From Nitrospirota bacterium (GTDB lineage: Bacteria; Nitrospirota; Thermodesulfovibrionia; Thermodesulfovibrionales; UBA9159), in contig JAMCQB010000049.1 of the NCBI GenBank assembly GCA_023382175.1, positions 2,888 to 66,887 on the forward strand: DNA of 64,000 nt, in the 5' to 3' direction. Positions 11,245 to 25,466 of this stretch are shown in pieces. How positions within the stretch are numbered: the stretch's first letter is position 1; each line of letters begins with the position of its first letter. Made by a program: the position numbers and the translations under genes. Below the pieces are notes generated by a model, which was not told where the DNA came from, searched no databases, and saw nothing but the letters and a program-made list of their open reading frames with translations.

Positions 11245-11265
11245 TTAACTTCATGGGTATAGGCA

Positions 11266-11481
11266 ATGTGTCCTTTTTGTACTATTAAACATGAACTTTG
11301 CAAAGCCGCCCTGTCATCGTTGATGATAGATAAAGAGCACTGTTCCAGCGAAGCTTATGACAGGTGCGCGATCTTTTTAGTCATCAAAGCAAGGGAGGGA
11401 GGTGATCGAAATGTGTCCAAGTTTCAAGGTGCGGATTTGCGAGGTGGCAGGTATCGAGCCGGAAAGAATACACTGCGCTGA
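11266..11481 (+). CDS. small four-cysteine protein, paralog A1
   Basis: CPFCTIKHELCKAALSSLMIDKEHCSSEAYDRCAIFL aligns with ORF 24561 (CPYF..DVCNASLSSL...FCNSEDYDNCPIFL). It sits directly behind a Pho-box promoter. The RBS is weak and the 3' end is uncertain. Confidence 0.5.
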   Translation: MCPFCTIKHELCKAALSSLMIDKEHCSSEAYDRCAIFLVIKAREGGDRNVSKFQGADLRGGRYRAGKNTLR

Positions 11482-15500: not shown

Positions 15501-15535
15501 AAGAGACCCGGGAAGATTTTCGGGTCTCTTTATTA
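15501..15535 (+). terminator. intrinsic terminator
   Basis: AGAGACCCG / CGGGTCTCT stem followed by TTATT. Confidence 0.55.
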
Positions 15536-15551
15536 CAATTCTGTTACAAAA

Positions 15552-15596
15552 AATTAACCTGGCTGTAATAATCCTGTAACAAAATAGTTGTATCCT
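15552..15596 (+). promoter_or_regulatory. Pho-box-like promoter
   Basis: AATTAAC ctgg CTGTAAT aatc CTGTAAC, then 10 bp, then TATCCT (15591-15596). The geometry and -10 hexamer are the same as at pstS. Confidence 0.6.
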
Positions 15597-15616: not shown

Positions 15617-15832
15617 ATGCATCTAAAAAGTGGAGCGATCTGTCAATTTCTGAAAGGGGGTTCTGACGGAGCTCAGTGCAGCGTGGTCGGCAGGTTCATC
15701 AGGCTCATGGAAGACGCCGACATCCGGCTCTGTATGGGCAGACACCATGAGGCATGCTCATACTATGTGCTCTCATTACGGGGACTGGCTCTTAGGGCTG
15801 CGGATCCTGATACTGCATTAGGCACGCGGTAG
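15617..15832 (+). CDS. small four-cysteine protein, paralog D
   Basis: ATG 15617 follows AAGGAGG. The Cys pattern is C-x11-C-x17-C-x7-C (ICQF...AQCS...RLCMGRHHEACSYY). Confidence 0.5.
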   Translation: MHLKSGAICQFLKGGSDGAQCSVVGRFIRLMEDADIRLCMGRHHEACSYYVLSLRGLALRAADPDTALGTR

Positions 15833-15870
15833 AATGTTCCGTCTTTCCTATAAAAGGTGCCCCACCGTGT

Positions 15871-16197
15871 ATGCTTAACGAATTGACGACACAATCTGCA
15901 ACAGGAATTGAGGAGATGAGATGTCCCTCTTGCGATTCCGATGCTATCTATAAGTATGGAAGGGCATGGACAGGAAAACAGAGGTTTCTCTGCATGATGT
16001 GCGGGATGCAATTTACCGGCAATGCCGGGAAGGCAACGGTGAAAGGCAAACCGGCTTGTCCGGAATGCGGGAAGCCCATGAACCTCTATAAGATAGAGGG
16101 TATTGTTGTGCGGTTCAGATGTTCGGGCTATCCAAAATGTAGAACATTCAAAAAATATAGGATGAAGGAGGAGCCAGATGAGCCATTACATCCATAA
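15871..16197 (+). CDS. double zinc-ribbon protein (InsA-like CxxC ribbon plus topoisomerase-type C4 finger), putative DNA binding
   Basis: CPSCDS...GKQRFLCMMCGMQF resembles transposase/InsA-type ribbons. CPECGKPM...FRCSGYPKC resembles the Topo I C4 finger. ATG 15916 is an alternative start. Confidence 0.5.
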   Translation: MLNELTTQSATGIEEMRCPSCDSDAIYKYGRAWTGKQRFLCMMCGMQFTGNAGKATVKGKPACPECGKPMNLYKIEGIVVRFRCSGYPKCRTFKKYRMKEEPDEPLHP

Positions 16198-16549
16198 CGT
16201 CCCGGGAAGATTGAGAGTTAAAAGTCCGGCAGTTAAGAAGAACACGGATGCCGCGGTTGAAATCCGAAAGATTTTGAGCGCCATGAACGGTATTGCAACG
16301 GTCGACATTAACCTCATCACCGGCAGTGTTCTCATTAACTACAATCCGGCGACCGTACAATACAAAGACATTGTAGGCACGCTCCAAAGGAAGGGCTACT
16401 TTGATACGTCAAAGGCGATAACAAATGATCAATACATCCAGAGAGCCGCTTCGAAAGCAGGCAATATCGTCGGAAAGGCTATCTTCGGTACATTTGTGGA
16501 AAAGGCATTCGAAGGGTCGGCTTTGTCATTAATAACATTCTTGATCTAA
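16178..16549 (+). CDS. HMA2-type (cysteine-less heavy-metal-associated-like) domain protein with hydrophobic C-terminal tail
   Basis: H..PGRLRVK...N.ITGSVLINY is the motif shared by three other proteins in this window. It overlaps the upstream ORF. Confidence 0.6.
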   Translation: MSHYIHNVPGRLRVKSPAVKKNTDAAVEIRKILSAMNGIATVDINLITGSVLINYNPATVQYKDIVGTLQRKGYFDTSKAITNDQYIQRAASKAGNIVGKAIFGTFVEKAFEGSALSLITFLI

Positions 16550-17790: not shown

Positions 17791-18054
17791 TCAGGTGCGA
17801 GACTTGCCTCTTCTGACGCTCAACACGTATTCAACCTTTCTGCTTACCAATATAGGCAAGAAATCTTTGACCCTTGCATTTCTTTTGAAACCCTTCAGCA
17901 CTAACTCATAAAGCTTCCCCACTTCTTCGAGTGACGCGCCGATACGCCCTGCAACTGTCTGCATGGCGTTTAGATGGCGCAGTCTTTCGGGTTCATCTTC
18001 ATAAAGCGCATGAAGATGAACATTCTCATCCTGCGAGGTACCCTTTACAGCCAT
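17791..18054 (-). CDS. small hypothetical protein, possibly DUF3562-like
   Basis: 87 aa. The C-terminal LYE...ARVKDFLPILVSRKV pattern is reminiscent of DUF3562, recalled from memory only. Confidence 0.35.
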   Translation of the reverse strand: MAVKGTSQDENVHLHALYEDEPERLRHLNAMQTVAGRIGASLEEVGKLYELVLKGFKRNARVKDFLPILVSRKVEYVLSVRRGKSRT

Positions 18055-18115: not shown

Positions 18116-19315
18116 TCAACCTTTCAACTCCCGTATTCTGTCTGTCAATTCCCAGGGCAGCCCTATATCCATTCTGCCCACATGTCCATATACTGCAAGC
18201 CTTCTGTAAAAACCGCCCTTAACAATGGAGGGCAGGTACCGCAGATTGAACTGTTTTATTATTCCCGCAAGTCGAAAGTCAAAATGCCTCTCAATGAGTT
18301 CTGCAATCTTCTCATCAGAGGTCTTCCCTGTGCCAAAGGTCTCTACCTGAACACTCACCGGCCTTGAAAGACCTATAGAATAGCTGAGATGTATCTCGCA
18401 TTCCTCTGCAAGCCCTGCTGCTACCACATTCTTTGCCGCATATCTGGCGGCATATGCGCCTATCCTGTCTATACGCATGGGGTCTTTTCCGCTCAGGGCA
18501 GAGCCGCTGTGCCGGGAATATTCTCCATAGGTGTCTATGGCATTCTTTCTCCCTGTTAAGCCTGAATGGACAGAAGGACCACCAACTATGAACGGCCCGT
18601 CGGGATTTATGAATATCCTCGTGTTTGTATCAGGTTTGATCTCCTCATCGGCGAATACAGGGTTTACAACAGCAGCCCTTATATCGTCATGCAGTTTCTT
18701 TAAATCAGGACCGCCTGATGCTAACGGTTTGTTCTGGCTCGCGATCACTGTAACACTGTGAATACTGTAAGGCCTGCCATCCCTGTATTCCACTCCTACC
18801 TGTGTTTTCCCGTCAGGTGCAAGATAGGGGAGTATCTTCTGGAGCCTGACAGAGGTCAGTTTTCTTGCAAGCCTGTGAGCGAGCCAGATGGGAAGGGGCA
18901 TAAAAGATGCGGTCTGGTTGCAGGCAAAGCCGAAGACAGTGACCTGATTCCTGACAGGGATATTATCCATCTCCTCCTCCGATAGCTCTCTCTCATCAAG
19001 GCAGCAATGCTCATCTGAAGGCAATTCCTTGAGGCTTGTTACAATGCTGCAGGTCTTGCCGTTAAAGGCATGCTGGTCATAGCCGATCTGGTTTATAACC
19101 TGTCTTGCTATATACGGGAAATCTACAATGGCATTGGATTCAAACCTTGCTGCTATAAAAACTATGGCTGTGGATACAGCACACTCAGCAATGACCCTTG
19201 AAAATGGGTCCTGCTGAAGGAAATGATCTACAAGGGCATCGCTTATCTGGTCACAGAGCTTGTCAGGGTGTCCTTCTGTTACAGATTCTGATATAAAAAT
19301 AAAGTCCTTTTTCAT
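18116..19315 (-). CDS. S-adenosylmethionine synthetase-like protein (divergent MetK paralog)
   Basis: The N-terminal SESVTEGHPDKLCDQISDA and GLTGRK..DTYG...SGKDP..DR.GAYAARY are clearly MetK-like. The GAGDQG signature region is replaced. Confidence 0.8.
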   Translation of the reverse strand: MKKDFIFISESVTEGHPDKLCDQISDALVDHFLQQDPFSRVIAECAVSTAIVFIAARFESNAIVDFPYIARQVINQIGYDQHAFNGKTCSIVTSLKELPSDEHCCLDERELSEEEMDNIPVRNQVTVFGFACNQTASFMPLPIWLAHRLARKLTSVRLQKILPYLAPDGKTQVGVEYRDGRPYSIHSVTVIASQNKPLASGGPDLKKLHDDIRAAVVNPVFADEEIKPDTNTRIFINPDGPFIVGGPSVHSGLTGRKNAIDTYGEYSRHSGSALSGKDPMRIDRIGAYAARYAAKNVVAAGLAEECEIHLSYSIGLSRPVSVQVETFGTGKTSDEKIAELIERHFDFRLAGIIKQFNLRYLPSIVKGGFYRRLAVYGHVGRMDIGLPWELTDRIRELKG

Positions 19316-19329
19316 TTAGCACCTCATTG

Positions 19330-19407
19330 CTTAAGGTTAAGGTTGAGGCTAAGGTTAAGAATTACAAATTTTTAATCTCTCTTAACCTAAACCTTAACCT
19401 CAACCTG
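19330..19407. repeat. hexamer-based palindrome (TTRAGG)n / (CCTYAA)n between the ATPase stop and the metK-like start
   Basis: ttaagg ttaagg ttgagg ctaagg ttaaga, then a loop, then tcttaacc taaacc ttaacc tcaacc. The right arm includes the ATPase stop codon. Confidence 0.6.
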
Positions 19408-22400
19408 TTCTTTTTGTGCCTTCATTCACTAACAATGGCATCACCGCACTGCCTCCAATCACAATACCATCGAGGATACCTATGGGAGCCAATCCCAAAA
19501 GATTTCGGAGCCCTGGTAGCGCCATGGCAAGAAGCTGTACGGCAAAGGAACCTCCGAGGGCGATATTGAGATATTTATTGGGCAGTAGTTTTTCCTTATC
19601 AAATATAGAATGCTTCTCGGAGCGGCAACTTATGGCGTGGAGAAGCTGACCTGCGGTAAGGCTCATAAAAGCCATGGCGCTTGCCTTCTGTCCCATACCG
19701 TATCTCATCACGCCATATCCATAGGCCCCCAGGGTCCCCGCGGAAATCACTGCGGATTCAAATGTGATTCTTTTGAAATCCGACGTCTTGACGATCAGTT
19801 CTTCAGGATCCCGTGGAGGCTGGCTCAGCACATCAGGTTCAGGGGGTTCGAGGGCAAGGGCAAGACCCGGCGCTATATCGGACATAAGGTTGATCCACAG
19901 CAGCTGTATCGCACTGAGAGGTTGACCGAGCCCCCCTGCAATAGCAGTGAACATAACCATGATCTCGCTCAGATTTGTCGACAGCAGGAAATGGACGGAT
20001 TTCCTGATGTTGTTATAGATGGTCCTTCCCTGGCTTATGGCGATGATCATCGTTGCGAGTTCATCGTCTTCGATGACAACGTCTGCGACTTCCCGGGCAA
20101 CATCGGTGCCCACATGTCCCATTGCGATGCCTATATCCGCTGCTTTGAGGGCAGGGCCGTCATTAATACCATCTCCCGTCATGGCCACAATCTTTCCCGC
20201 ACCCTGGAGCGCCTGAACTATCTGGAGCTTATGGGCAGGACTCACGCGCGAAAAAACATGCACCCTCTCGCAGAGCGCCTTCATCACTTCAGGGTCGATA
20301 CTGGCAAGGTGAGCGGAATCAAGGATCTCGAGTTGTTCGCCATTGCTGAGGTTCAATTCCTTTCCTATGGCATAGGCGGTCGGGCTCTGGTCGCCGGTTA
20401 TCATGACCGTCTCAATCCCTGCCCTGTGAAATTCCCCTATCAACCCCTTCACGCCTCCTCTGACCGGATCAGCCATTCCTACAAGACCCAGCCACACAAG
20501 ATTATCGCTGAAATCGACATCATTATTAAGAAACGCGCCCGGTTCACCATCACTGAGAGAGTACGCCACCCCAAGGACACGGAGAGCCTCCCCGGCCATA
20601 CGCTCATTTTCCGTCTCTATGGCGAGCCGGTCCTCATCGGTCAAGGGAATCTTCCTGCCATCCTTCATATGCCACCTGCACATCGACAGGACCTCGTTCG
20701 GGCTCCCCTTTACGGCAACAAGCGCGGAATGGTTGCCTGCGCGGTGAAGTGTATACATGTAGTTGCGGTTTTCAGAACGATGTTGAATGTTCACCAGGAG
20801 AAATTTTTCCCTGAGTCTTACCACATCGACCCCCGAACTCAATGCTATGTGGATCAGCGCATTCTCCGTAGGAGAACCGTTGACCGCATATTCACCATGC
20901 TGTCCGATCACTTCACTTTCATTGCAGAGAGCCGCTATGTGAATGAGTCTCAGGAGTTCATCGAAGAGATATACACTCGCCGGTTCACCGGACGCAAAAA
21001 ACTGCCCGTCGGATACAGTGAAGCGCCTCATCCCACTAAATGCCGTGACAACAGACATCCTGTTCAGGGTGATCGTTCCTGTTTTGTCGAGGCATATGGT
21101 GTGGATAGAGCCGAGGGTTTCGACCGCTTCGAGTCGCCGTATGAGGACGTTGTGCCTCCGCATATTTCTGATGCCCAGGGCTAAGGTTGTGGTCGCCACT
21201 GTCGGAAGTCCTTCGGGGACGGCGGCGATGGCAAGGGATATGGAGGTTTTGAGCATCTGTAAAAAACCGTATCCACGAAGAAGTCCCGTAACAAAGACCA
21301 GGCCGCAGACAGCGCCGCAGATCAATACCAGTTGGCTGCCCATCATGTCCAGTTGGCGCTCCATAGGGGTTTCAGGAGGTCTTGCTTCACCGACGAGGAT
21401 TTGTATCCTTCCGATCTCGGTAAACCTCCCTGTCGCAACGGCAACAGCAATCCCCTGTCCTCCGACAACAAGTGTCCCCATGTATACCATGTTCGTCCTG
21501 TCAGCGAGGGGGATGTTGTCCCTCTCACCCTCTCCCGCCAGGGGAGAGGGTTTATAAATTTGTTTCCCTCCCCCTTGATGGGGGAGGGTGAGGGAGGGGG
21601 TGGCTGTTGTTTTAACCACAGGCATACTCTCGCCGGTGAGTGCTGACTCATCGATGCTCAGGTGATTGGCTTCAATGAGCCTTGCGTCTGCCGCAACATA
21701 GCTGCCGGGCCTGAGCAGAAGGAGGTCTCCGGGCACTACGTTTTCTGCGCCTATCTCTTTCAGACGACCATCCCGCAGCACTATAGCAGAGGGTCTCACA
21801 AGATTCTTCAGCGAATGGATCGTTTTTTCGGTCTGGCTCTCGGTTGTGTAACCGATGGCGGCATTGATGAGGACTACGCCCATGATCACCACCGCATCTG
21901 CAAGACCGCCGGTGAGGAGCGAAATGCCCGCAGCAGCTCCCAGGAGGGCGACAGGAAGGGATTTGAACTGGTTGATGAACATACTCAGCCCTGAACGCGG
22001 AACAGATTCAGGAAGGACATTCGGACCGTATTTTTTGAGATGTGCCCCGGCGAGGTCGCCGGATAAGCCCGAATCTTTCGACGTGCCGAGAGATTGGAGA
22101 ACCTCGGTCGCCTCAGCAAGATGCCACGGCTCGACTCTCTGGTCCTCGGACCGGATAATGCTTTTCCTTAATTTTCTCCTGCTTCTGAGCTCTCCGCGTT
22201 CCGGGGTCAGGACTTCGCCTGGCCTTGCTTTTTCCGGAAGCGGGTTGTGGACCTTTGCATGTCGAACTTCTTTCCCGGAGCCTGCTGCCACCCCTGGAAC
22301 GGGTAATGAAAAACAAGATGACTGCCTTCCGGCATTTTTTTTGTGAGCTTCGACAACGTCCGCAATGAGCAGGGCTATTGAATGGTGGGGGTTGTCTGAA

Positions 22401-22570
22401 TTAAAGAAAACAAGCACACTCCCGGTCAAAGAGTTTACCGAGAATTTCAGTATCTCTTTATGAGACGACAGACCCCCCTCTATCTCTCTCTTGAGCCTCT
22501 CAGAGCGGTATAGCCCATCTACCTTAAATCGCGCCCTGCCTTTTACAGCAGCATGTATGGGCCGAACCAC
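19400..22570 (-). CDS. P2-type cation-translocating P-type ATPase with N-terminal HMA2-type domain
   Basis: TGES, PEGLP, DKTGTIT, MITGDQ and GDGINDGPALK motifs. The TM5/TM6 motifs STNLSEI and INLMSD resemble SERCA-like Ca-site residues. The N-terminal KGRARFKV...N.LTGSVLVFF is an HMA2-type domain. Confidence 0.9.
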   Translation of the reverse strand: MVRPIHAAVKGRARFKVDGLYRSERLKREIEGGLSSHKEILKFSVNSLTGSVLVFFNSDNPHHSIALLIADVVEAHKKNAGRQSSCFSLPVPGVAAGSGKEVRHAKVHNPLPEKARPGEVLTPERGELRSRRKLRKSIIRSEDQRVEPWHLAEATEVLQSLGTSKDSGLSGDLAGAHLKKYGPNVLPESVPRSGLSMFINQFKSLPVALLGAAAGISLLTGGLADAVVIMGVVLINAAIGYTTESQTEKTIHSLKNLVRPSAIVLRDGRLKEIGAENVVPGDLLLLRPGSYVAADARLIEANHLSIDESALTGESMPVVKTTATPSLTLPHQGGGKQIYKPSPLAGEGERDNIPLADRTNMVYMGTLVVGGQGIAVAVATGRFTEIGRIQILVGEARPPETPMERQLDMMGSQLVLICGAVCGLVFVTGLLRGYGFLQMLKTSISLAIAAVPEGLPTVATTTLALGIRNMRRHNVLIRRLEAVETLGSIHTICLDKTGTITLNRMSVVTAFSGMRRFTVSDGQFFASGEPASVYLFDELLRLIHIAALCNESEVIGQHGEYAVNGSPTENALIHIALSSGVDVVRLREKFLLVNIQHRSENRNYMYTLHRAGNHSALVAVKGSPNEVLSMCRWHMKDGRKIPLTDEDRLAIETENERMAGEALRVLGVAYSLSDGEPGAFLNNDVDFSDNLVWLGLVGMADPVRGGVKGLIGEFHRAGIETVMITGDQSPTAYAIGKELNLSNGEQLEILDSAHLASIDPEVMKALCERVHVFSRVSPAHKLQIVQALQGAGKIVAMTGDGINDGPALKAADIGIAMGHVGTDVAREVADVVIEDDELATMIIAISQGRTIYNNIRKSVHFLLSTNLSEIMVMFTAIAGGLGQPLSAIQLLWINLMSDIAPGLALALEPPEPDVLSQPPRDPEELIVKTSDFKRITFESAVISAGTLGAYGYGVMRYGMGQKASAMAFMSLTAGQLLHAISCRSEKHSIFDKEKLLPNKYLNIALGGSFAVQLLAMALPGLRNLLGLAPIGILDGIVIGGSAVMPLLVNEGTKRTG
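21519..21600. repeat. double-hairpin GC-rich palindromic element inserted in frame in the ATPase gene
   Basis: CCCTCTCCC-gccag-GGGAGAGGG (21528-21550) and CCCTCCCCC-ttgat-GGGGGAGGG (21566-21588). It is translated as ...LTLPHQGGGKQIYKPSPLAGEGERD... Confidence 0.65.
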
Positions 22571-22585
22571 ACCTTTTATCCCTTT

Positions 22586-23266
22586 TTACCCTTCGTTCTC
22601 GGGGTTTTTTTCTGATACGCCTGCTTTCGGAGCCGTTGCTTCTTTTCGAGCGCCTGTAACGGCTGGTCTCGGTTTCGGCAGGGCGGCGCCTGCAACCTCC
22701 TTCACTCCTTCAACAACCCCAACAAGCATATCCTTGACAGCCTTTACCGCGGTATTCCCTATAGTTCCGGCAGCCTCGATCGCCCCTCCCACAGCCACCT
22801 TTGCCACATCTTCCACATTCCCGCCGACTTCCTTGGTTGCTTCGATGACCCCGTCAACCGCCCTCCGCGCAACCATGGCAACATCAGCGCCTACCTCAGC
22901 AGCACCTTTGACTGCGCCCTTTACCGTCTGGCTGGCAACGGTCACGACATCTCCGCCGACATCGCTCACTCCCATGACGACACCCTTCGCAACGCTCTTT
23001 GTGCTTAAAATGAGGCCTGTGCCGACCTCTTCCGTCGCCTGAATCGCACCCTTTACCACGTCTCTTGTAATGGTAACTGCTTCATTGGCCACTGAACCAG
23101 TGGCTCTCAGAGTGTTGGAAACGGTATTCCTCACCAGGCTGACGATTTCAGCCTCGATCTCGTTGATGCCCTTGAGGCTGCTCACGACACCTTCTTTTAC
23201 TGCTGTTCCTGCCTTGCCGATTCCTTCGCCCATCGGGCTTTCCTCTATGACATGCTCATTAGACAT
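22586..23266 (-). CDS. tandem 22-residue repeat protein (about 7-8 repeats), unknown function
   Basis: The start is set at ATG 23266, behind GAGGAGG. The repeats are TRDVVKGAIQATEEVGTGLILS / TKSVAKGVVMGVSDVGGDVVTV / ASQTVKGAVKGAAEVGADVAMV / ARRAVDGVIEATKEVGGNVEDV / AKVAVGGAIEAAGTIGNTAVKA, and so on. Confidence 0.6.
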   Translation of the reverse strand: MSNEHVIEESPMGEGIGKAGTAVKEGVVSSLKGINEIEAEIVSLVRNTVSNTLRATGSVANEAVTITRDVVKGAIQATEEVGTGLILSTKSVAKGVVMGVSDVGGDVVTVASQTVKGAVKGAAEVGADVAMVARRAVDGVIEATKEVGGNVEDVAKVAVGGAIEAAGTIGNTAVKAVKDMLVGVVEGVKEVAGAALPKPRPAVTGARKEATAPKAGVSEKNPENEG

Positions 23267-23310: not shown

Positions 23311-23333
23311 AAAAACGGAAGGGAAATCCCTTC
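23311..23333 (-). terminator. possible weak terminator/attenuator between the HMA2-TM gene and the repeat-protein gene
   Basis: On the minus strand, GAAGGG-atTT-CCCTTC followed by CGTTTTTAT. Confidence 0.35.
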
Positions 23334-23346
23334 TTCCTCCAGACCG

Positions 23347-23829
23347 TTATGCTGCGACCCCGGCGCCTTGCCCTGACTTGAGGAATATGTTAAATGCGTA
23401 CCAGAAGGCGGCATACCATGGGAGCGCAGTAAGATTTCCTACGCTCATTTGGTATATTCCGGCGCCGAGGAGCAGGAGAAAAGCCAGCCCTCCGATGTCT
23501 ATCTCGCCCCCGGTAAGCGCCACAAGCTGAGTATTCATCCCTTTAAAGGTTTCCGATACCCGCTGCTGCAACCTTCTCGGAGAGGCGTTCAGTCCTTGAA
23601 GGCTGAAAAGATTACCGGCCATGGCGTATCCCGCAATTCTTTCACTATCCAGATCGTGCATCACGAGCAAACTGCCGGTTAAGGCATTGACTTCAACGGT
23701 CTTGATGCCTTCAAAACCGGAAAATCGTTCCTTCAAGCCTCCAAAAAATGCACGATCACCCTTTTTTGAAGGTATCCTGATCCTCAACCTTCCTCTGGTC
23801 CGATGGCTTATATAAGCGCGCGGGAGCAT
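23347..23829 (-). CDS. HMA2-type domain protein with C-terminal transmembrane segments
   Basis: The N-terminal H.TRGRLRIRIP...N.LTGSLLVMH motif and the C-terminal GGLAFLLLLGAGIY...ALPWYAAFWYAFNIFL. Its start overlaps the upstream stop (TAATG). Confidence 0.6.
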   Translation of the reverse strand: MLPRAYISHRTRGRLRIRIPSKKGDRAFFGGLKERFSGFEGIKTVEVNALTGSLLVMHDLDSERIAGYAMAGNLFSLQGLNASPRRLQQRVSETFKGMNTQLVALTGGEIDIGGLAFLLLLGAGIYQMSVGNLTALPWYAAFWYAFNIFLKSGQGAGVAA

Positions 23830-24119
23830 TAAGCGTTTGGTTCGCCTTCCGGCGCAACCGGGGCAGATGCGGCTTTTTCCGCCTCCGAGATCTCAGCTTT
23901 TACCTCGGCTACCAGGTCCTCAACCACCTCACCTACTTCAGCAAAAGTCTCCTTGCCTTTTTCAAAGAGGATAAGTCCTCCCTTTATCGCTGCCTTTGCC
24001 ACCGGTTTTGCCACACCTGCAATAACGGGGAGCACGGCAGGAGCAAGGACAGCCGCCCCTATGCCAATAGCAAGCCCTGTCACAACATTTCCCTTCAGGA
24101 CATCATCAAAAAGTCCCAT
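23829..24119 (-). CDS. DUF5132-like small membrane protein
   Basis: MGLFDDVLKGNVVTGLAIGIGAAVLAPAVLPVIAGVAKPVAKAAIKGGLILFEKG followed by an acidic tail. This matches my recollection of DUF5132 proteins, which are often adjacent to HMA2/P-type ATPase genes. Confidence 0.55.
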   Translation of the reverse strand: MGLFDDVLKGNVVTGLAIGIGAAVLAPAVLPVIAGVAKPVAKAAIKGGLILFEKGKETFAEVGEVVEDLVAEVKAEISEAEKAASAPVAPEGEPNA

Positions 24120-24267: not shown

Positions 24268-24300
24268 ATGCCCAGGATCAGACGAAAGAGGATGACTGCT

Positions 24301-24564
24301 ATGATGCAGTACAAGATTTTACATCATGTCCCAGGCCGTATCAGGATTGAGGTGCCCTCCATTAAGGGACGTTCCCTGAAGGCTCTAAAGCGATTATCAG
24401 ATATTCCCGTTCCGTGCGGTATAGAGGACATTCGCCCTAATCCCTTGACAGGAAGCCTCTTGATAAAGTATGACCCAGGCCGGATAAATATCGTTTCCTA
24501 TCTGAGGGACATGGCATCCAGGGACGTGATAAACAATGTACTCGACAAAGGAGGTTTGTTATGA
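24301..24564 (+). CDS. stand-alone HMA2-type domain protein
   Basis: HHVPGRIRIEVP...NPLTGSLLIKYDP. The start was moved to ATG 24301 because ATG 24268 abuts the predicted -10. The RBS is AAGAGGA. Confidence 0.6.
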   Translation: MMQYKILHHVPGRIRIEVPSIKGRSLKALKRLSDIPVPCGIEDIRPNPLTGSLLIKYDPGRINIVSYLRDMASRDVINNVLDKGGLL

Positions 24565-24770
24565 ACAGCACCCATAACATTGCATCTATGATACACCTCA
24601 CCAATGAATTGGAATTGCAGTGCCCCTACTTTGATGCATCCGACGTCTGCAATGCCTCGCTCTCCTCATTATTGCCATCGCCGACTATGAGGGTGAATTT
24701 CTGTAACAGCGAAGACTATGACAATTGCCCCATATTCCTGGCTAAGGTCTTAAGAAGGAGGCGGAAATGA
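24561..24770 (+). CDS. small four-cysteine protein, paralog E
   Basis: ATGA start/stop overlap with the upstream gene and an AAGGAGG RBS. The Cys pattern is C-x8-C-x17-C-x7-CPIF. Confidence 0.55.
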   Translation: MNSTHNIASMIHLTNELELQCPYFDASDVCNASLSSLLPSPTMRVNFCNSEDYDNCPIFLAKVLRRRRK

Positions 24771-24958
24771 CATGTCTCGACTATGTGTCCGAAGATTTGA
24801 GATGTCTCAGGGGTATCCCCGTTACTCCAAGGTTCAGCAGCTTCTTCTGTAAAGGAAAACATGAGAAATGTCCTTTGATCATATGGGAGAAATCTCAGAC
24901 AAAGAACCCGGAGATGTTACGGCCGAAATCATTTATCAATATATGGAGGGAACCATGA
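24767..24958 (+). CDS. small four-cysteine protein, paralog F
   Basis: ATGA overlap and an AAGGAGG RBS. The Cys pattern is C-x9-C-x14-C-x6-CPLI. Confidence 0.5.
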   Translation: MTCLDYVSEDLRCLRGIPVTPRFSSFFCKGKHEKCPLIIWEKSQTKNPEMLRPKSFINIWREP

Positions 24959-25134
24959 AATGTCCGCATCTGGCAAAATGGGTCGTGTCTGTCTGTAAGG
25001 CTGTGAGTAATACTTATGTCCCCAGTAACTTTGAGCTTCAAGAGTACTGTAAGACAAAAAGCCATAAGAAATGCCCTTTCTTTTTAAAGAATACAGCCGT
25101 GAAAAGAGAAGCGGATGGCCTGATCTCAGCATAG
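24955..25134 (+). CDS. small four-cysteine protein, paralog G
   Basis: ATGA overlap with F and a GGAGGG RBS. MKCPHLAKWVVSVCKAV...YCKTKSHKKCPFFL gives the pattern C-x10-C-x17-C-x7-CPFF. Confidence 0.55.
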   Translation: MKCPHLAKWVVSVCKAVSNTYVPSNFELQEYCKTKSHKKCPFFLKNTAVKREADGLISA

Positions 25135-25410: not shown

Positions 25411-25466
25411 ATGTAACAGAAAATTAATCTTCTTGTAACATAATTGTAACAATCAAAATGTATCCT
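25411..25466 (+). promoter_or_regulatory. Pho-box promoter of pstS (four phased boxes)
   Basis: ATGTAAC agaa AATTAAT cttc TTGTAAC ataa TTGTAAC, then 10 bp, then TATCCT (25461-25466). Confidence 0.7.

What the first reader, a model, noticed from the sequence alone, without database searches (positions are those of the whole stretch)
22586..23266. Protein built almost entirely of tandem 22-residue (2 x 11) repeats
From about residue 40 to 205 the product can be cut into consecutive 22-mers with the conserved pattern x3-V-x-G-x-[IV]-x-[AG]-x2-[ED]-V-G-x2-[VL]-x2-V. Examples are TRDVVKGAIQATEEVGTGLILS, TKSVAKGVVMGVSDVGGDVVTV, ASQTVKGAVKGAAEVGADVAMV, ARRAVDGVIEATKEVGGNVEDV, AKVAVGGAIEAAGTIGNTAVKA and VKDMLVGVVEGVKEVAGAALPK.

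11/22-residue periodicity is characteristic of amphipathic-helix membrane or lipid-surface coats such as apolipoproteins, perilipins, synucleins and some LEA proteins. The gene sits between the HMA2-TM gene and the P-type ATPase, which suggests a scaffold or coat role in that system. The composition is Gly/Val/Ala-rich rather than Lys/Glu-rich, so the analogy is loose.
Basis: seen in the sequence. Interest (0 to 1): 0.6.

Follow-up and report, generated by a model that had tools for sequence, protein, structure and literature searches.

The report
Helical 22-residue repeat protein beside calcium-type pump
A real, strongly conserved gene encodes a new kind of helical-repeat protein (one short amphipathic helix per 22 residues) that is almost always co-encoded with a calcium-type ion pump and small membrane proteins, and probably acts as their cytoplasmic scaffold or coat.

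Summary
The minus-strand ORF 22586-23266 (226 aa) has six canonical and two degenerate 22-residue repeats. Autocorrelation z is 10.8 at lag 22.

It is a real gene: dN/dS is 0.04-0.09. It belongs to a family with no Pfam model, about 1,140 clusters at 50% identity.

AlphaFold2 (pLDDT 85, pTM 0.73) predicts one 19-residue helix per repeat, ended by a Gly C-cap and Asp/Asn N-cap turn. The helices stack as a compact alpha-solenoid. The best PDB matches are designed helical repeat proteins. It is neither a beta-solenoid nor disordered.

Hydrophobicity has 11/3 periodicity. The apolar face is weak (Val/Ala/Ile/Thr) with no aromatic residues. Lys lies on one flank and Glu/Asp on the other, as reported for perilipin 4.

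In 62 of 63 evaluable genome loci, mostly Nitrospirota, the order is DUF5132, CoBaHMA(HMA_2)-TM, this gene, CoBaHMA-fused SPCA/LMCA1-like P-type ATPase, then usually MetK.

Distant homologs lie elsewhere:
- fused to receiver domains inside GlgE alpha-glucan operons;
- next to WS/DGAT neutral-lipid synthases;
- fused to MucR zinc fingers;
- next to ECF sigma factors.

Best reading: a peripheral scaffold or coat subunit of the pump module. This function is inferred, not shown. It is not a member of the apolipoprotein, perilipin, synuclein, LEA or calcyanin families.

The parts
22586..23266 (-). Gene for the 226-aa helical-repeat protein (ATG at 23266, stop codon at 22586-22588)
   Evidence: ORF and RBS. 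dN/dS is 0.04-0.09 against orthologs. Relatives at 67-89% identity occur in 268 GTDB genome stretches.
22691..23086 (-). Six canonical 22-residue repeats (residues 61-192). Each is one helix of about 19 residues plus a 3-residue [E/D]-V-G-x-[D/N] turn
   Evidence: Autocorrelation z = 10.8 at lag 22. Register and conservation. AF2 helices 61-81, 85-102, 107-125, 129-147, 151-169 and 171-195, with pLDDT above 90.
23087..23218 (-). Two degenerate repeats (residues 17-60) that lack the Gly breaks. They are predicted as one long N-terminal helix (12-56) with the invariant INEIEAEI motif
22589..22690 (-). End of the last helix and a Pro/Lys/Ala-rich C-terminal tail (residues 193-226). It has low confidence and is variable among homologs. 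MucR, receiver or other extensions attach here in other family members
   Evidence: pLDDT 56-65. Alignment A2.
23318..23333 (-). GC-rich hairpin followed by a T-run, in the 80-nt gap between the HMA_2-TM gene and this gene. It may be an attenuator or an mRNA-stabilising element
   Evidence: Consensus scan only. Function not tested.
23347..23829 (-). CoBaHMA (Pfam HMA_2) domain plus a C-terminal transmembrane hairpin, 160 aa. Conserved upstream partner
   Evidence: Pfam HMA_2 E = 1.6e-15. Found upstream in 64 of 67 evaluable loci. One natural fusion to the repeat domain, P0155.
23829..24119 (-). DUF5132 protein (N-terminal TM segment plus a soluble helix), 96 aa. It is the first gene of the operon, and its stop overlaps the next start
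   Evidence: Pfam DUF5132 E = 4e-14. Found upstream in 63 of 67 evaluable loci.
19400..22570 (-). P2-type (SPCA1/LMCA1/SERCA-like) cation ATPase with an N-terminal CoBaHMA domain, 1056 aa. It starts 15 nt after the repeat gene
   Evidence: Pfam. NCBIfam best hit is the PMR1-type Ca ATPase, 608 bits, below its cut-off. Best PDB relatives are SPCA1 (1e-140) and LMCA1 (5e-138). Found downstream in 66 of 76 evaluable loci.
18116..19315 (-). S-adenosylmethionine synthetase (MetK), which follows the ATPase
   Evidence: Follows the ATPase in 59 of 62 evaluable loci, including loci titled Desulfobulbaceae, Deltaproteobacteria, Deferrimicrobium and Pseudomonadota.
17791..18054 (-). DUF3562-like small protein. 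It recurs after MetK and also next to solo paralogs of the repeat gene
   Evidence: phmmer on loci. The Pfam label DUF3562 comes from homologous loci.
24268..24564 (+). Divergently transcribed single-domain CoBaHMA protein, 98 aa
   Evidence: Pfam HMA_2 E = 5e-8. A divergent copy is present in 34 of 80 loci.
24561..25134 (+). Three small overlapping ORFs, each with four Cys (C-P...C...C...C-P pattern). They have no family match and follow the CoBaHMA gene
   Evidence: Homologs lie upstream in 33 of 80 loci.

Best explanation
The gene encodes a cytoplasmic helical-repeat protein from a previously undescribed family. Each 22-residue unit is one short amphipathic helix closed by a Gly C-cap and an Asp/Asn N-cap turn. 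Six such helices follow a long N-terminal helix.

The helices have a broad but weakly hydrophobic Val/Ala/Ile/Thr face. A GxxxG/A pair sits on one edge. Lys lies on one flank and Glu/Asp on the other, so neighbouring helices can zip together laterally.

In this lineage the protein is a dedicated, co-transcribed accessory subunit of a membrane module made of three parts: DUF5132, a CoBaHMA-TM hairpin protein, and a CoBaHMA-fused Ca2+(/Mn2+)-type P-type ATPase.

Most likely it forms a peripheral scaffold or coat on the cytoplasmic face of the membrane, or of an inclusion, where the pump sits. It would dock through its conserved acidic surface onto the basic CoBaHMA domains, or through its apolar face onto the lipid surface, or both. 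This would resemble an exchangeable apolipoprotein or perilipin that is folded when free.

What is shown: the repeat anatomy, the helical character, the purifying selection, the synteny and the family breadth.
What is predicted: the solenoid fold.
What is inferred: binding partners, membrane or inclusion association, and the transported ion.
For: Repeat periodicity and register.

Fold prediction:
- AF2 of the target gives pLDDT 85 and pTM 0.73, with one helix per repeat.
- An independent AF2 run on a subfamily with about 33% identity gives the same helix-turn repeat. Homology between the two is hhalign probability 99.5%, E = 3e-22.
- Foldseek best matches are designed helical repeat proteins: DHR4, TM 0.58/0.65, rmsd 2.8 A over 168 columns.

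Helix chemistry:
- The hydrophobicity spectrum peaks at 98 degrees, which is 11/3 periodicity. The protein has no aromatic residues and no Cys, and residues 12-196 contain no Pro.
- On the helical wheel, the apolar sector spans about 165 degrees. Lys/Arg lie at +118 to +150 degrees and Glu/Asp at -112 to -177 degrees.
- The same one-sided positive charge and lack of bulky residues underlie the published lateral coat model of perilipin 4 (PMC8064757).

Synteny:
- DUF5132, HMA_2-TM, target and ATPase occur together in 62 of 63 loci evaluable on both sides.
- The same arrangement is seen in metagenomic relatives with 44-77% identity.
- P0155 is a single ORF that joins HMA_2-TM to the repeat domain.

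Surface-protein leads:
- Family members about 50% identical to each other both neighbour WS/DGAT genes.
- Scattered sub-threshold hits go only to surface proteins of lipidic inclusions: Senescence 8/57, Phasin_2, Apolipoprotein and Chlorosome_CsmC.

Literature: DUF5132, CoBaHMA-TM and a Ca transporter also flank and co-express with calcyanin in Microcystis.
Against: - AF2 predicts a closed, compact fold with its apolar faces buried. No lipid contact is needed to explain the sequence.
- The core is acidic (pI 5.0; 22 Asp/Glu against 18 Lys/Arg), which is unfavourable for binding anionic bacterial membranes.
- Helix hydrophobic moments are only moderate, 0.25-0.42.
- Many polar residues are nearly invariant, which suggests specific protein contacts.
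- Homologs fused to receiver domains or MucR zinc fingers, or placed next to ECF sigma factors, point to a generic protein-interaction or regulatory module.
- No experiment or complex prediction links the protein to CoBaHMA.
- Most synteny comes from one class of bacteria, so part of it reflects shared descent.
Confidence: 0.4

Rival explanations
1. It is a purely soluble alpha-solenoid adaptor or regulator. The repeat domain is a generic protein-protein interaction or self-association module, like HEAT or TPR repeats. Here it would bind and regulate the pump, for example through its CoBaHMA domain, without touching lipid or any inclusion.
For: - High-confidence compact fold resembling designed helical repeats.
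- Near-invariant charged surface residues.
- Fusions to receiver domains at either end and to MucR zinc fingers, where it takes the place of MucR's N-terminal region.
- Neighbourhood with ECF sigma factors.
- Acidic pI that complements the basic CoBaHMA domains.
Against: - The 11/3 periodicity, weak aromatic-free apolar face and one-sided Lys pattern are those of lipid-surface coats.
- WS/DGAT adjacency in a sister subgroup.
- Every other product of the DUF5132-to-ATPase core of the operon is a membrane protein, and one homolog is fused to the TM hairpin protein.
Confidence: 0.3
2. It is a cytosolic Ca2+(/Mn2+) buffer, a metallochaperone feeding the pump, or a mineral-nucleating template. The ladders of [E/D]-V-G-x-[D/N] turns at both ends of the helix stack would bind cations or a nascent Ca-phosphate or Ca-carbonate surface.
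For: - Conserved acidic residues flank every turn (E79/E80, D102/D106, E124/D128, E146/N150).
- The operon partner is an SPCA/LMCA1-like ATPase.
- The same accessory genes flank calcyanin, the marker of intracellular CaCO3 biomineralisation.
- Some solo paralog loci carry a ChaA/CAX-like membrane ORF or an MntP-like one within a few kb. These assignments rest on motifs read by eye, not on a family search.
- The cluster is embedded among phosphate-uptake genes.
Against: - No known Ca-binding motif (EF-hand, RTX, Dx-repeat) is matched.
- Net charge is only about -4 to -5.
- The Asp/Asn at repeat position 2 is fully explained as a helix N-cap.
- Homologs in glycogen, lipid and sigma-factor contexts have no link to cations.
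Confidence: 0.1
3. It is an LEA-like or hydrophilin-type stress protectant with 11-mer repeats. It would be disordered in solution and its operon position would be incidental.
For: - The 11-residue sub-periodicity and the Ala/Gly/Glu/Lys/Thr-rich composition.
- One homolog is fused to CsbD, and a separate CsbD gene lies about 3 kb away in the Nitrosovibrio locus.
Against: - GRAVY is positive (+0.15 overall, +0.43 in the core), whereas hydrophilins are strongly negative.
- 18% of residues are Val.
- The fold is predicted with confidence.
- There is no LEA Pfam match.
- Synteny with the pump module is tight.
Confidence: 0.03

Closest known systems
Perilipin 4 and perilipin 11-mer/33-mer repeat amphipathic helices (PMC5889406, PMC8064757)
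   Same: - Tandem repeats in multiples of 11.
- A weakly hydrophobic face built from Val/Ala/Thr with no bulky or aromatic residues.
- Many Gly residues.
[quoted passage not shown]
- A sister subgroup of the family neighbours the bacterial neutral-lipid synthase WS/DGAT.
   Different: - No sequence homology; no Perilipin Pfam hit.
- Only 6-8 repeats.
- Each repeat is a discrete helix with conserved cap residues.
- It is predicted to be folded without lipid, whereas Plin4 is unfolded in solution.
- The protein is acidic.
- It uses Glu as well as Asp, and Arg as well as Lys.
Exchangeable apolipoproteins (apoA-I/apoE 22-mers; apolipophorin III helix bundle)
   Same: - 22-residue amphipathic helical units with an 11-mer sub-period.
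- A possible folded helical bundle when lipid-free.
- Inter-helix salt bridges.
   Different: - Helices are punctuated by Gly/Asp turns rather than Pro.
- Charges are not in the class-A arrangement; basic residues lie on one flank only.
- The Pfam Apolipoprotein model is hit by 2 of 57 members, at E = 0.008 or weaker.
Alpha-synuclein (KTKEGV 11-mer repeats)
   Same: - Val/Ala/Gly/Thr/Lys/Glu-rich 11-mer repeats with 11/3 periodicity.
- Local look-alikes, for example DVGGDVVTVASQTVKGA against [21 protein letters not shown].
   Different: Not homologous: hhalign probability 2% and PDB phmmer E = 1.7. Synuclein is basic in its repeat region and disordered when free.
Calcyanin (GlyZip)3 domain and its gene neighbourhood (PMC8890360; bioRxiv 10.1101/2024.07.07.602159)
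   Same: - The same accessory gene set is present: DUF5132, a CoBaHMA-TM hairpin protein and a Ca2+ transporter.
- This gene sits among these accessory genes as ccyA does in Microcystis, although the gene order differs.
- It is a Gly- and small-residue-rich helical repeat with three helix-hairpin units.
   Different: - Calcyanin's GlyZip is about 50 aa and largely apolar. It has about 12 consecutive G-x3-G units and a central Gly-Pro.
- Here the longest run of Gly at spacing 4 is 2, residues 12-196 contain no Pro, and the period is 22.
- No Gly-zipper Pfam model is hit.
De novo designed helical repeat proteins (DHR4, PDB 5cwb; DHR7, 5cwd)
   Same: The predicted three-dimensional architecture is a two-layer solenoid of short helices joined by tight turns.
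   Different: These are artificial proteins with 13-20% identity. No natural solved structure matches at E <= 1e-3.
Phasins, chlorosome envelope protein CsmC and the spartin Senescence domain (surface proteins of hydrophobic inclusions)
   Same: These are the only Pfam families that recur as weak hits across the family.
   Different: All hits fall below the curated thresholds. For the window protein, Senescence scores 15.6 bits against a cut-off of 24.6. The best E-values anywhere are 1.8e-4 (Senescence) and 5e-5 (CsmC, 2 of 73 members). Shared composition could explain them.
Ferrosome (fez) clusters: a P1B-6 ATPase plus small membrane proteins that build a lipid-bounded iron store (bioRxiv 10.1101/2020.01.10.902569)
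   Same: System-level analogy: a P-type ATPase is co-encoded with small hairpin membrane proteins.
   Different: The ATPase class differs (P2, Ca-type) and there is no fez homology. No compartment has been observed for this cluster.

Membership tests
Exchangeable apolipoprotein (Pfam PF01442) | Match to the family model above the gathering score | tested here: not met
   The window protein has no hit. 2 of 57 family members hit, with best E = 0.008.
Exchangeable apolipoprotein (Pfam PF01442) | Tandem 22/11-residue amphipathic helices | tested here: met
   Lag-22 z = 10.8 and lag-11 z = 5.5. Hydrophobicity peaks at 98 degrees.
Exchangeable apolipoprotein (Pfam PF01442) | Pro-punctuated helices with class-A charge distribution (basic residues at both interfaces) | tested here: not met
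   Residues 12-196 contain no Pro. Turns are Gly/Asp. Basic residues lie on one flank only.
Perilipin / PAT 11-mer repeat region (Pfam PF03036) | Match to the family model | tested here: not met
   No hit at E <= 1 for the window protein. No hit at E <= 0.1 for the 57 members of A1, or at E <= 0.01 for the 73 members of A4.
Perilipin / PAT 11-mer repeat region (Pfam PF03036) | Binds lipid droplets or oil and folds only on the lipid surface | not testable with these tools
   AF2 predicts a fold without lipid. The only indirect support is WS/DGAT adjacency in a sister subgroup.
Synuclein (Pfam PF01387) | Sequence homology to the KTKEGV repeat region | tested here: not met
   hhalign probability 2%. 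PDB phmmer E = 1.7.
LEA group 3 / hydrophilins | Highly hydrophilic (negative GRAVY), Gly-rich and disordered, with 11-mer repeats | tested here: not met
   GRAVY is +0.15 overall and +0.43 in the core. The fold is confidently helical. No LEA_4 hit.
Calcyanin (GlyZip)3 | Motifs of about 50 aa with about 12 consecutive G-x3-G units around a central Gly-Pro, largely apolar | tested here: not met
   The longest run of Gly at spacing 4 is 2. There is no Gly-Pro. The period is 22, and 21% of residues are charged. The definition is from PMC8890360. A direct profile comparison was not possible because no calcyanin sequence was available.
Calcyanin (GlyZip)3 | Gene neighbourhood with DUF5132, CoBaHMA proteins and a Ca2+ transporter (reported for Microcystis) | tested here: met
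   DUF5132, HMA_2-TM and an SPCA-like ATPase flank the gene.
Beta-solenoid (bactofilin-like or pentapeptide-like) | Strand periodicity and a beta-helical fold | tested here: not met
   Lag-2 autocorrelation z = -3.7. The AF2 model has no strand.
Alpha-solenoid / helical repeat protein (structural class) | Stacked helix-turn-helix units forming an elongated superhelix | tested here: met
   Prediction only: pTM 0.73 and Foldseek TM 0.58/0.65 to DHR4. A distant subfamily gives the same result.
Phasin_2 / Senescence / Chlorosome_CsmC (inclusion-surface proteins) | Match above the gathering score | tested here: not met
   The window protein scores 15.6 bits on Senescence (cut-off 24.6) and 12.8 bits on Phasin_2 (cut-off 24.9). 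Across the family the hits are weak and few: Senescence 8/57, Phasin_2 4/57 in A1 plus 1/73 in A4, CsmC 2/73.

The most novel reading that the evidence does not exclude
The operon DUF5132, CoBaHMA-TM, repeat protein, CoBaHMA-Ca-ATPase, MetK may specify an unrecognised cation-storage compartment or membrane domain. The stored material would probably be Ca-phosphate or Ca-carbonate. The hosts would be anaerobic Nitrospirota and Desulfobacterota, which have no ccyA-dependent route described. In this reading the repeat protein is the coat of that compartment. It would be a bacterial, pre-folded counterpart of perilipin-type coats, and the functional stand-in for calcyanin. More broadly, the whole family would be a general class of storage-inclusion surface proteins, given the paralogous subfamilies at WS/DGAT and GlgE loci.
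Probability: 0.12. Interest if true: 0.85.

Novelty: new variant of a known kind. Interest (0 to 1): 0.6.

Why it matters
CoBaHMA domains and DUF5132 proteins are currently known only as unexplained neighbours of calcyanin, the marker of intracellular carbonate biomineralisation in cyanobacteria.

This locus shows the same accessory set in a different and very tightly conserved operon. That operon contains a Ca-type P-ATPase and a new helical-repeat protein, and it occurs in many uncultured Nitrospirota and Desulfobacterota. It gives a defined four-gene module that can be tested directly for cation sequestration or for compartment formation.

The repeat protein also defines a sizeable family with no annotation, about 1,100 clusters at 50% identity. 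Its subfamilies sit at neutral-lipid, alpha-glucan and cation-pump loci. If these are surface proteins of storage inclusions, they would be a bacterial analogue of perilipins and phasins, with a fold so far seen only in designed proteins.

Tried and rejected
- DNA-level tandem repeat: none found.
- Beta-solenoid or disorder: rejected by autocorrelation and by AF2.
- Homology to solved structures by sequence: the profile gave 0 hits and the single sequence gave only noise.
- Synuclein homology: rejected.
- GlyZip/calcyanin membership: rejected on its published defining features. I could not obtain a calcyanin sequence. The supplements are not held and the CoBaHMA paper by Gaschignard et al. is not held.
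- First attempt at a genome scan with the broad alignment failed because it had no sufficiently conserved stretch. The narrower alignment worked.
- Apparent repeat-ATPase fusions P0013, P0099 and P0101: judged to be frameshift or read-through artefacts, because the linker sequences look like out-of-frame CoBaHMA.
- Pho box in the operon's own promoter region: not found. The motif occurs only upstream of pstS and of a second CoBaHMA operon.
- Rfam scan of 15-26 kb: only sub-threshold miRNA-type hits on a palindrome.
- Literature: no paper mentions DUF3562, and none describes this cluster.
- WS/DGAT association: found for 2 of 5 members of that subgroup that I examined. The other three had ECF-sigma or unrelated lipid contexts. 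It is therefore a lead and not a rule.
Full report
**1. The observation**

The ORF lies on the minus strand at 22586-23266. A GGAGG sequence sits 8 nt upstream of the ATG at 23266, and the product is 226 aa.

BLOSUM62 autocorrelation against shuffles gives z = 10.8 at lag 22, 9.3 at lag 44, 8.5 at lag 66 and 5.5 at lag 11. Lag 2 is negative and lag 4 positive, which is the signature of helix and not of strand.

No tandem repeat remains at the DNA level.

In 86 aligned orthologs the register is 61-82, 83-104, 105-126, 127-148, 149-170 and 171-192. Two degenerate units cover 17-60. Gly at repeat position 13 is 97-100% conserved in each repeat. Position 17 is Gly or Ala, position 22 is Gly, position 2 is mostly Asp or Asn and position 20 is mostly Glu or Asp.

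The protein has no aromatic residues and no Cys, and residues 12-196 contain no Pro.

**2. It is a real gene in a real family**

Pairwise dN/dS against orthologs is 0.04-0.09, with synonymous sites near saturation.

A scan of one genome per GTDB species found 268 relatives. The best 80 are 67-89% identical and come almost entirely from Nitrospirota (Thermodesulfovibrionales, Dissulfurispiraceae, Manganitrophus). A few records are titled Desulfobulbaceae, Deltaproteobacteria, Deferrimicrobium or Pseudomonadota. The window is therefore most likely from a Thermodesulfovibrionia-type genome.

An exhaustive HMMER search of 1.84 billion cluster representatives found 1,144 clusters at E <= 1e-3 and 111 at E <= 1e-30.

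No Pfam or NCBIfam model reaches its threshold. No PDB sequence matches.

**3. Structure**

AlphaFold2 with a 57-sequence alignment gives mean pLDDT 85 (above 90 through the repeats) and pTM 0.73. The model is entirely helical: a long helix 12-56, then helices 61-81, 85-102, 107-125, 129-147, 151-169 and 171-195.

Each 22-mer is thus one helix of about 19 residues plus a three-residue turn at [E/D]-V-G-x-[D/N]. I read the invariant Gly as a C-cap and the Asp/Asn/Thr as the N-cap of the next helix. That reading is an inference from the sequence.

Foldseek against the PDB finds only de novo designed helical repeat proteins at significance. DHR4 (5cwb) matches at E = 9e-4, TM 0.58/0.65 and rmsd 2.8 A over 168 columns. 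No natural structure matches.

A distant subfamily with about 33% identity is truly homologous (hhalign probability 99.5%, E = 3e-22). Modelled independently, it gives the same helices of about 17-21 residues separated by 4-5-residue turns.

**4. Helix chemistry**

The hydrophobicity power spectrum of residues 61-195 has one dominant peak at 98 degrees, which equals 360 x 3/11.

I placed the consensus 22-mer on an 11/3 wheel:
- The apolar sector spans about 165 degrees and is built from Val, Ala, Ile, Leu and Thr.
- The conserved Gly13 and Gly/Ala17 pair, a GxxxG/A motif, lies on one edge.
- Lys/Arg (positions 8, 12, 19) lie on one flank.
- Glu/Asp (positions 2, 9, 16, 20) lie on the other flank and at the centre of the polar face.

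In a two-layer solenoid, neighbours in the same layer are parallel, so a Lys flank would face a Glu flank. The charge asymmetry therefore fits the predicted fold. This is an inference.

The same two features, no bulky hydrophobic residues and positive charges confined to one side, are reported for the perilipin 4 repeat helix. There they are proposed to drive lateral helix-helix contacts in a stable coat on lipid droplets (PMC8064757).

Against simple membrane binding:
- The core has pI 5.0.
- GRAVY of the core is +0.43.
- Helix hydrophobic moments are only 0.25-0.42.

**5. Genomic context of the orthologs**

In the window the minus-strand order is:
- DUF5132 (23829-24119), whose stop overlaps the next start;
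- CoBaHMA/HMA_2 plus TM hairpin (23347-23829);
- an 80-nt gap containing a hairpin and a T-run;
- the repeat gene;
- a 15-nt gap;
- the ATPase with an N-terminal HMA_2 domain (19400-22570);
- MetK (18116-19315);
- a DUF3562-like gene (17791-18054).

A single-domain CoBaHMA gene and three small four-Cys ORFs are transcribed divergently. The pstSCAB genes follow them.

Synteny across the 80 genome loci:

| Feature | Loci with feature | Evaluable loci |
|---|---|---|
| ATPase directly downstream | 66 | 76 |
| HMA_2-TM upstream | 64 | 67 |
| DUF5132 upstream | 63 | 67 |
| All of the above together | 62 | 63 |
| MetK after the ATPase | 59 | 62 |

Twelve loci are solo paralogs. Five of these have a DUF3562 gene alongside.

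Metagenomic relatives at 44-77% identity keep the same operon. They carry PhoU, PHO4, PhoBR-like, Porin_O_P, PstS or TerC genes nearby.

One homolog, P0155, is a single ORF that joins the HMA_2-TM protein to the repeat domain.

The ATPase is closest to human SPCA1 (1e-140), Listeria LMCA1 (5e-138) and SERCA. Its best NCBIfam model is the PMR1-type Ca ATPase, below the cut-off. The PEGL motif and the TM5/TM6 Asn, Glu and Asp ligands can be read in the sequence, while by eye the SERCA E908 position in TM8 appears to be Gln. Ca2+ or Mn2+ is therefore an inference, not a demonstration.

**6. Literature**

Pfam HMA_2 corresponds to the CoBaHMA domain. In Microcystis, the calcyanin gene ccyA marks intracellular amorphous CaCO3. 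It is flanked by DUF5132 genes, a CoBaHMA-DUF454 TM-hairpin gene, another CoBaHMA gene and a Ca2+/H+ exchanger, and is co-expressed with several of them (bioRxiv 10.1101/2024.07.07.602159).

The repeat gene here sits among the same accessory set, though in a different gene order. It is not a calcyanin, however. The GlyZip motif is defined as about 12 consecutive G-x3-G units around a central Gly-Pro in a largely apolar stretch of about 50 aa (PMC8890360). Here the longest run of Gly at spacing 4 is 2, and there is no Gly-Pro.

No paper in the library describes this cluster.

**7. Distant homologs live elsewhere**

- A large 303-aa subfamily carries a C-terminal receiver domain. Named members are from Dehalococcoidia. 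Its gene sits inside GlgE alpha-glucan operons, in the order GlgE, repeat-REC, TreS/Mak, MalQ or GlgB, amylase.
- One member has the receiver at the N-terminus and more repeats.
- Other members end in a MucR zinc finger and lie beside DUF5132.
- A betaproteobacterial subgroup member, P0158 (the cluster includes a Telluria sp. protein), lies 9 nt upstream of a WS/DGAT wax-ester/triacylglycerol synthase. P0160, about 50% identical to it, lies between an acyl-activating enzyme and another WS/DGAT.
- Two further members lie between a beta-helix protein and an ECF sigma factor. One is near fatty-acid synthesis and Mla genes.

The weak Pfam hits across 130 members fall on Senescence (8), Phasin_2 (5), Apolipoprotein (2) and Chlorosome_CsmC (2). 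All four are surface proteins of hydrophobic inclusions, and all hits are below threshold. Shared composition may explain them.

**8. Interpretation**

What is shown:
- a new helical 22-residue repeat family;
- strong purifying selection;
- near-obligate synteny of this orthologous group with two CoBaHMA proteins, DUF5132 and a Ca-type pump.

What is predicted: a compact two-layer helical solenoid.

What is inferred: the protein is the soluble, peripheral partner of an otherwise membrane-embedded module. It would act as a scaffold or coat that docks on the basic CoBaHMA domains, the lipid surface, or both. It might open in the manner of an exchangeable apolipoprotein. I give this 0.4.

A purely soluble adaptor or regulator role is nearly as likely (0.3) and explains the signalling-domain fusions better. 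A cation-buffer or nucleator role (0.1) rests on the acidic turn ladders and the Ca context, but those residues are also ordinary helix caps. An LEA-like role is unlikely (0.03).

It is wrong in detail, because the helices are discrete, the protein is predicted to be folded and acidic, and it belongs to none of the named families.

**9. Novelty and score**

The family is sequence-novel and has no annotation, and the operon is uncharacterised. The kind of protein, a helical-repeat scaffold or coat, is known. I rate it a new variant of a known kind, with interest 0.6.

The most novel reading that the evidence does not exclude has probability about 0.12. In that reading the operon builds a Ca-rich storage compartment or domain with this protein as its coat, and the wider family is a general class of storage-inclusion surface proteins.

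Noticed in passing
window 21524-21592 (inside the ATPase gene, minus strand): A 27-nt-arm palindrome (81% complementary) lies in frame within the ATPase. It encodes roughly PSLTLPHQGGGKQIYKPSPLAGEGE. Among about 27 orthologs inspected, only L008 has the same insertion. Others have short or different inserts at this loop after the LTGES motif. It looks like a small palindromic mobile element tolerated in a hypervariable loop. It also produced sub-threshold Rfam miRNA-type hits on both strands.
   Followed up: partly
window 25412-25455 and 15531-15581: There are Pho-box-like arrays of TGTAACA-type heptamers at 11-bp phasing. One lies just upstream of pstS (exact TGTAACAtaatTGTAACA at 25434). The other lies upstream of a second small operon at 15617-16549, which encodes a Cys-rich protein, a zinc-ribbon protein and another CoBaHMA protein. 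The pattern matched 7 times against 0.85 expected by chance. None lies in the promoter region of the repeat-protein operon itself.
   Followed up: partly
window 18116-19315; loci L001, L006-L091: A MetK gene (S-adenosylmethionine synthetase) follows the ATPase in 59 of 62 evaluable loci. These include loci titled Desulfobulbaceae, Deltaproteobacteria, Deferrimicrobium and Pseudomonadota. It is unclear whether this is the housekeeping metK or a dedicated paralog, and why it is linked.
   Followed up: partly
window 24561-25134 (+), also 11263-11478 and 15617-15832: These are small overlapping ORFs of 63-88 aa, each with four Cys in a C-P ... C ... C ... C-P[L/I/F]F pattern. They match no Pfam or NCBIfam model. 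They recur next to single-domain CoBaHMA genes in 33 of 80 related loci.
   Followed up: partly
window 23318-23333 (minus strand): A terminator-like hairpin (GAAGGGATTTCCCTTC plus a T-run) sits between the HMA_2-TM gene and the repeat gene, inside what otherwise looks like one operon. It might set different expression levels for the two genes.
   Followed up: no
window 22491-23042 (+ strand): A 183-aa ORF lies antisense to the repeat gene and is rich in Pro, Thr, Ser and Ala. It recurs in all related loci only because it mirrors the conserved sense gene. It is almost certainly not a gene.
   Followed up: partly
L086 8001-8912; L087 2230-3141: The receiver-domain-fused homologs (303 aa, Dehalococcoidia) are embedded in GlgE-pathway alpha-glucan operons, between GlgE and TreS/Mak. 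This is an unexplained link between the repeat domain, phosphorelay signalling and glycogen-like storage.
   Followed up: partly
L090 7001-7645 and L092 783-1460: Two family members about 50% identical to each other each neighbour a WS/DGAT neutral-lipid synthase gene. One lies 9 nt upstream. The other is convergent and has an acyl-activating enzyme on its other side. They are candidate bacterial lipid-droplet surface proteins.
   Followed up: partly
L035, L075 (+4 to +6.5 kb); L055, L069, L085: Solo paralogs of the repeat gene, which lack the pump, are often next to DUF3562 genes. Some loci have a ChaA/CAX-like membrane ORF or an MntP-like one within a few kb. These two assignments rest on motifs read by eye and were not confirmed by a family search.
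   Followed up: no
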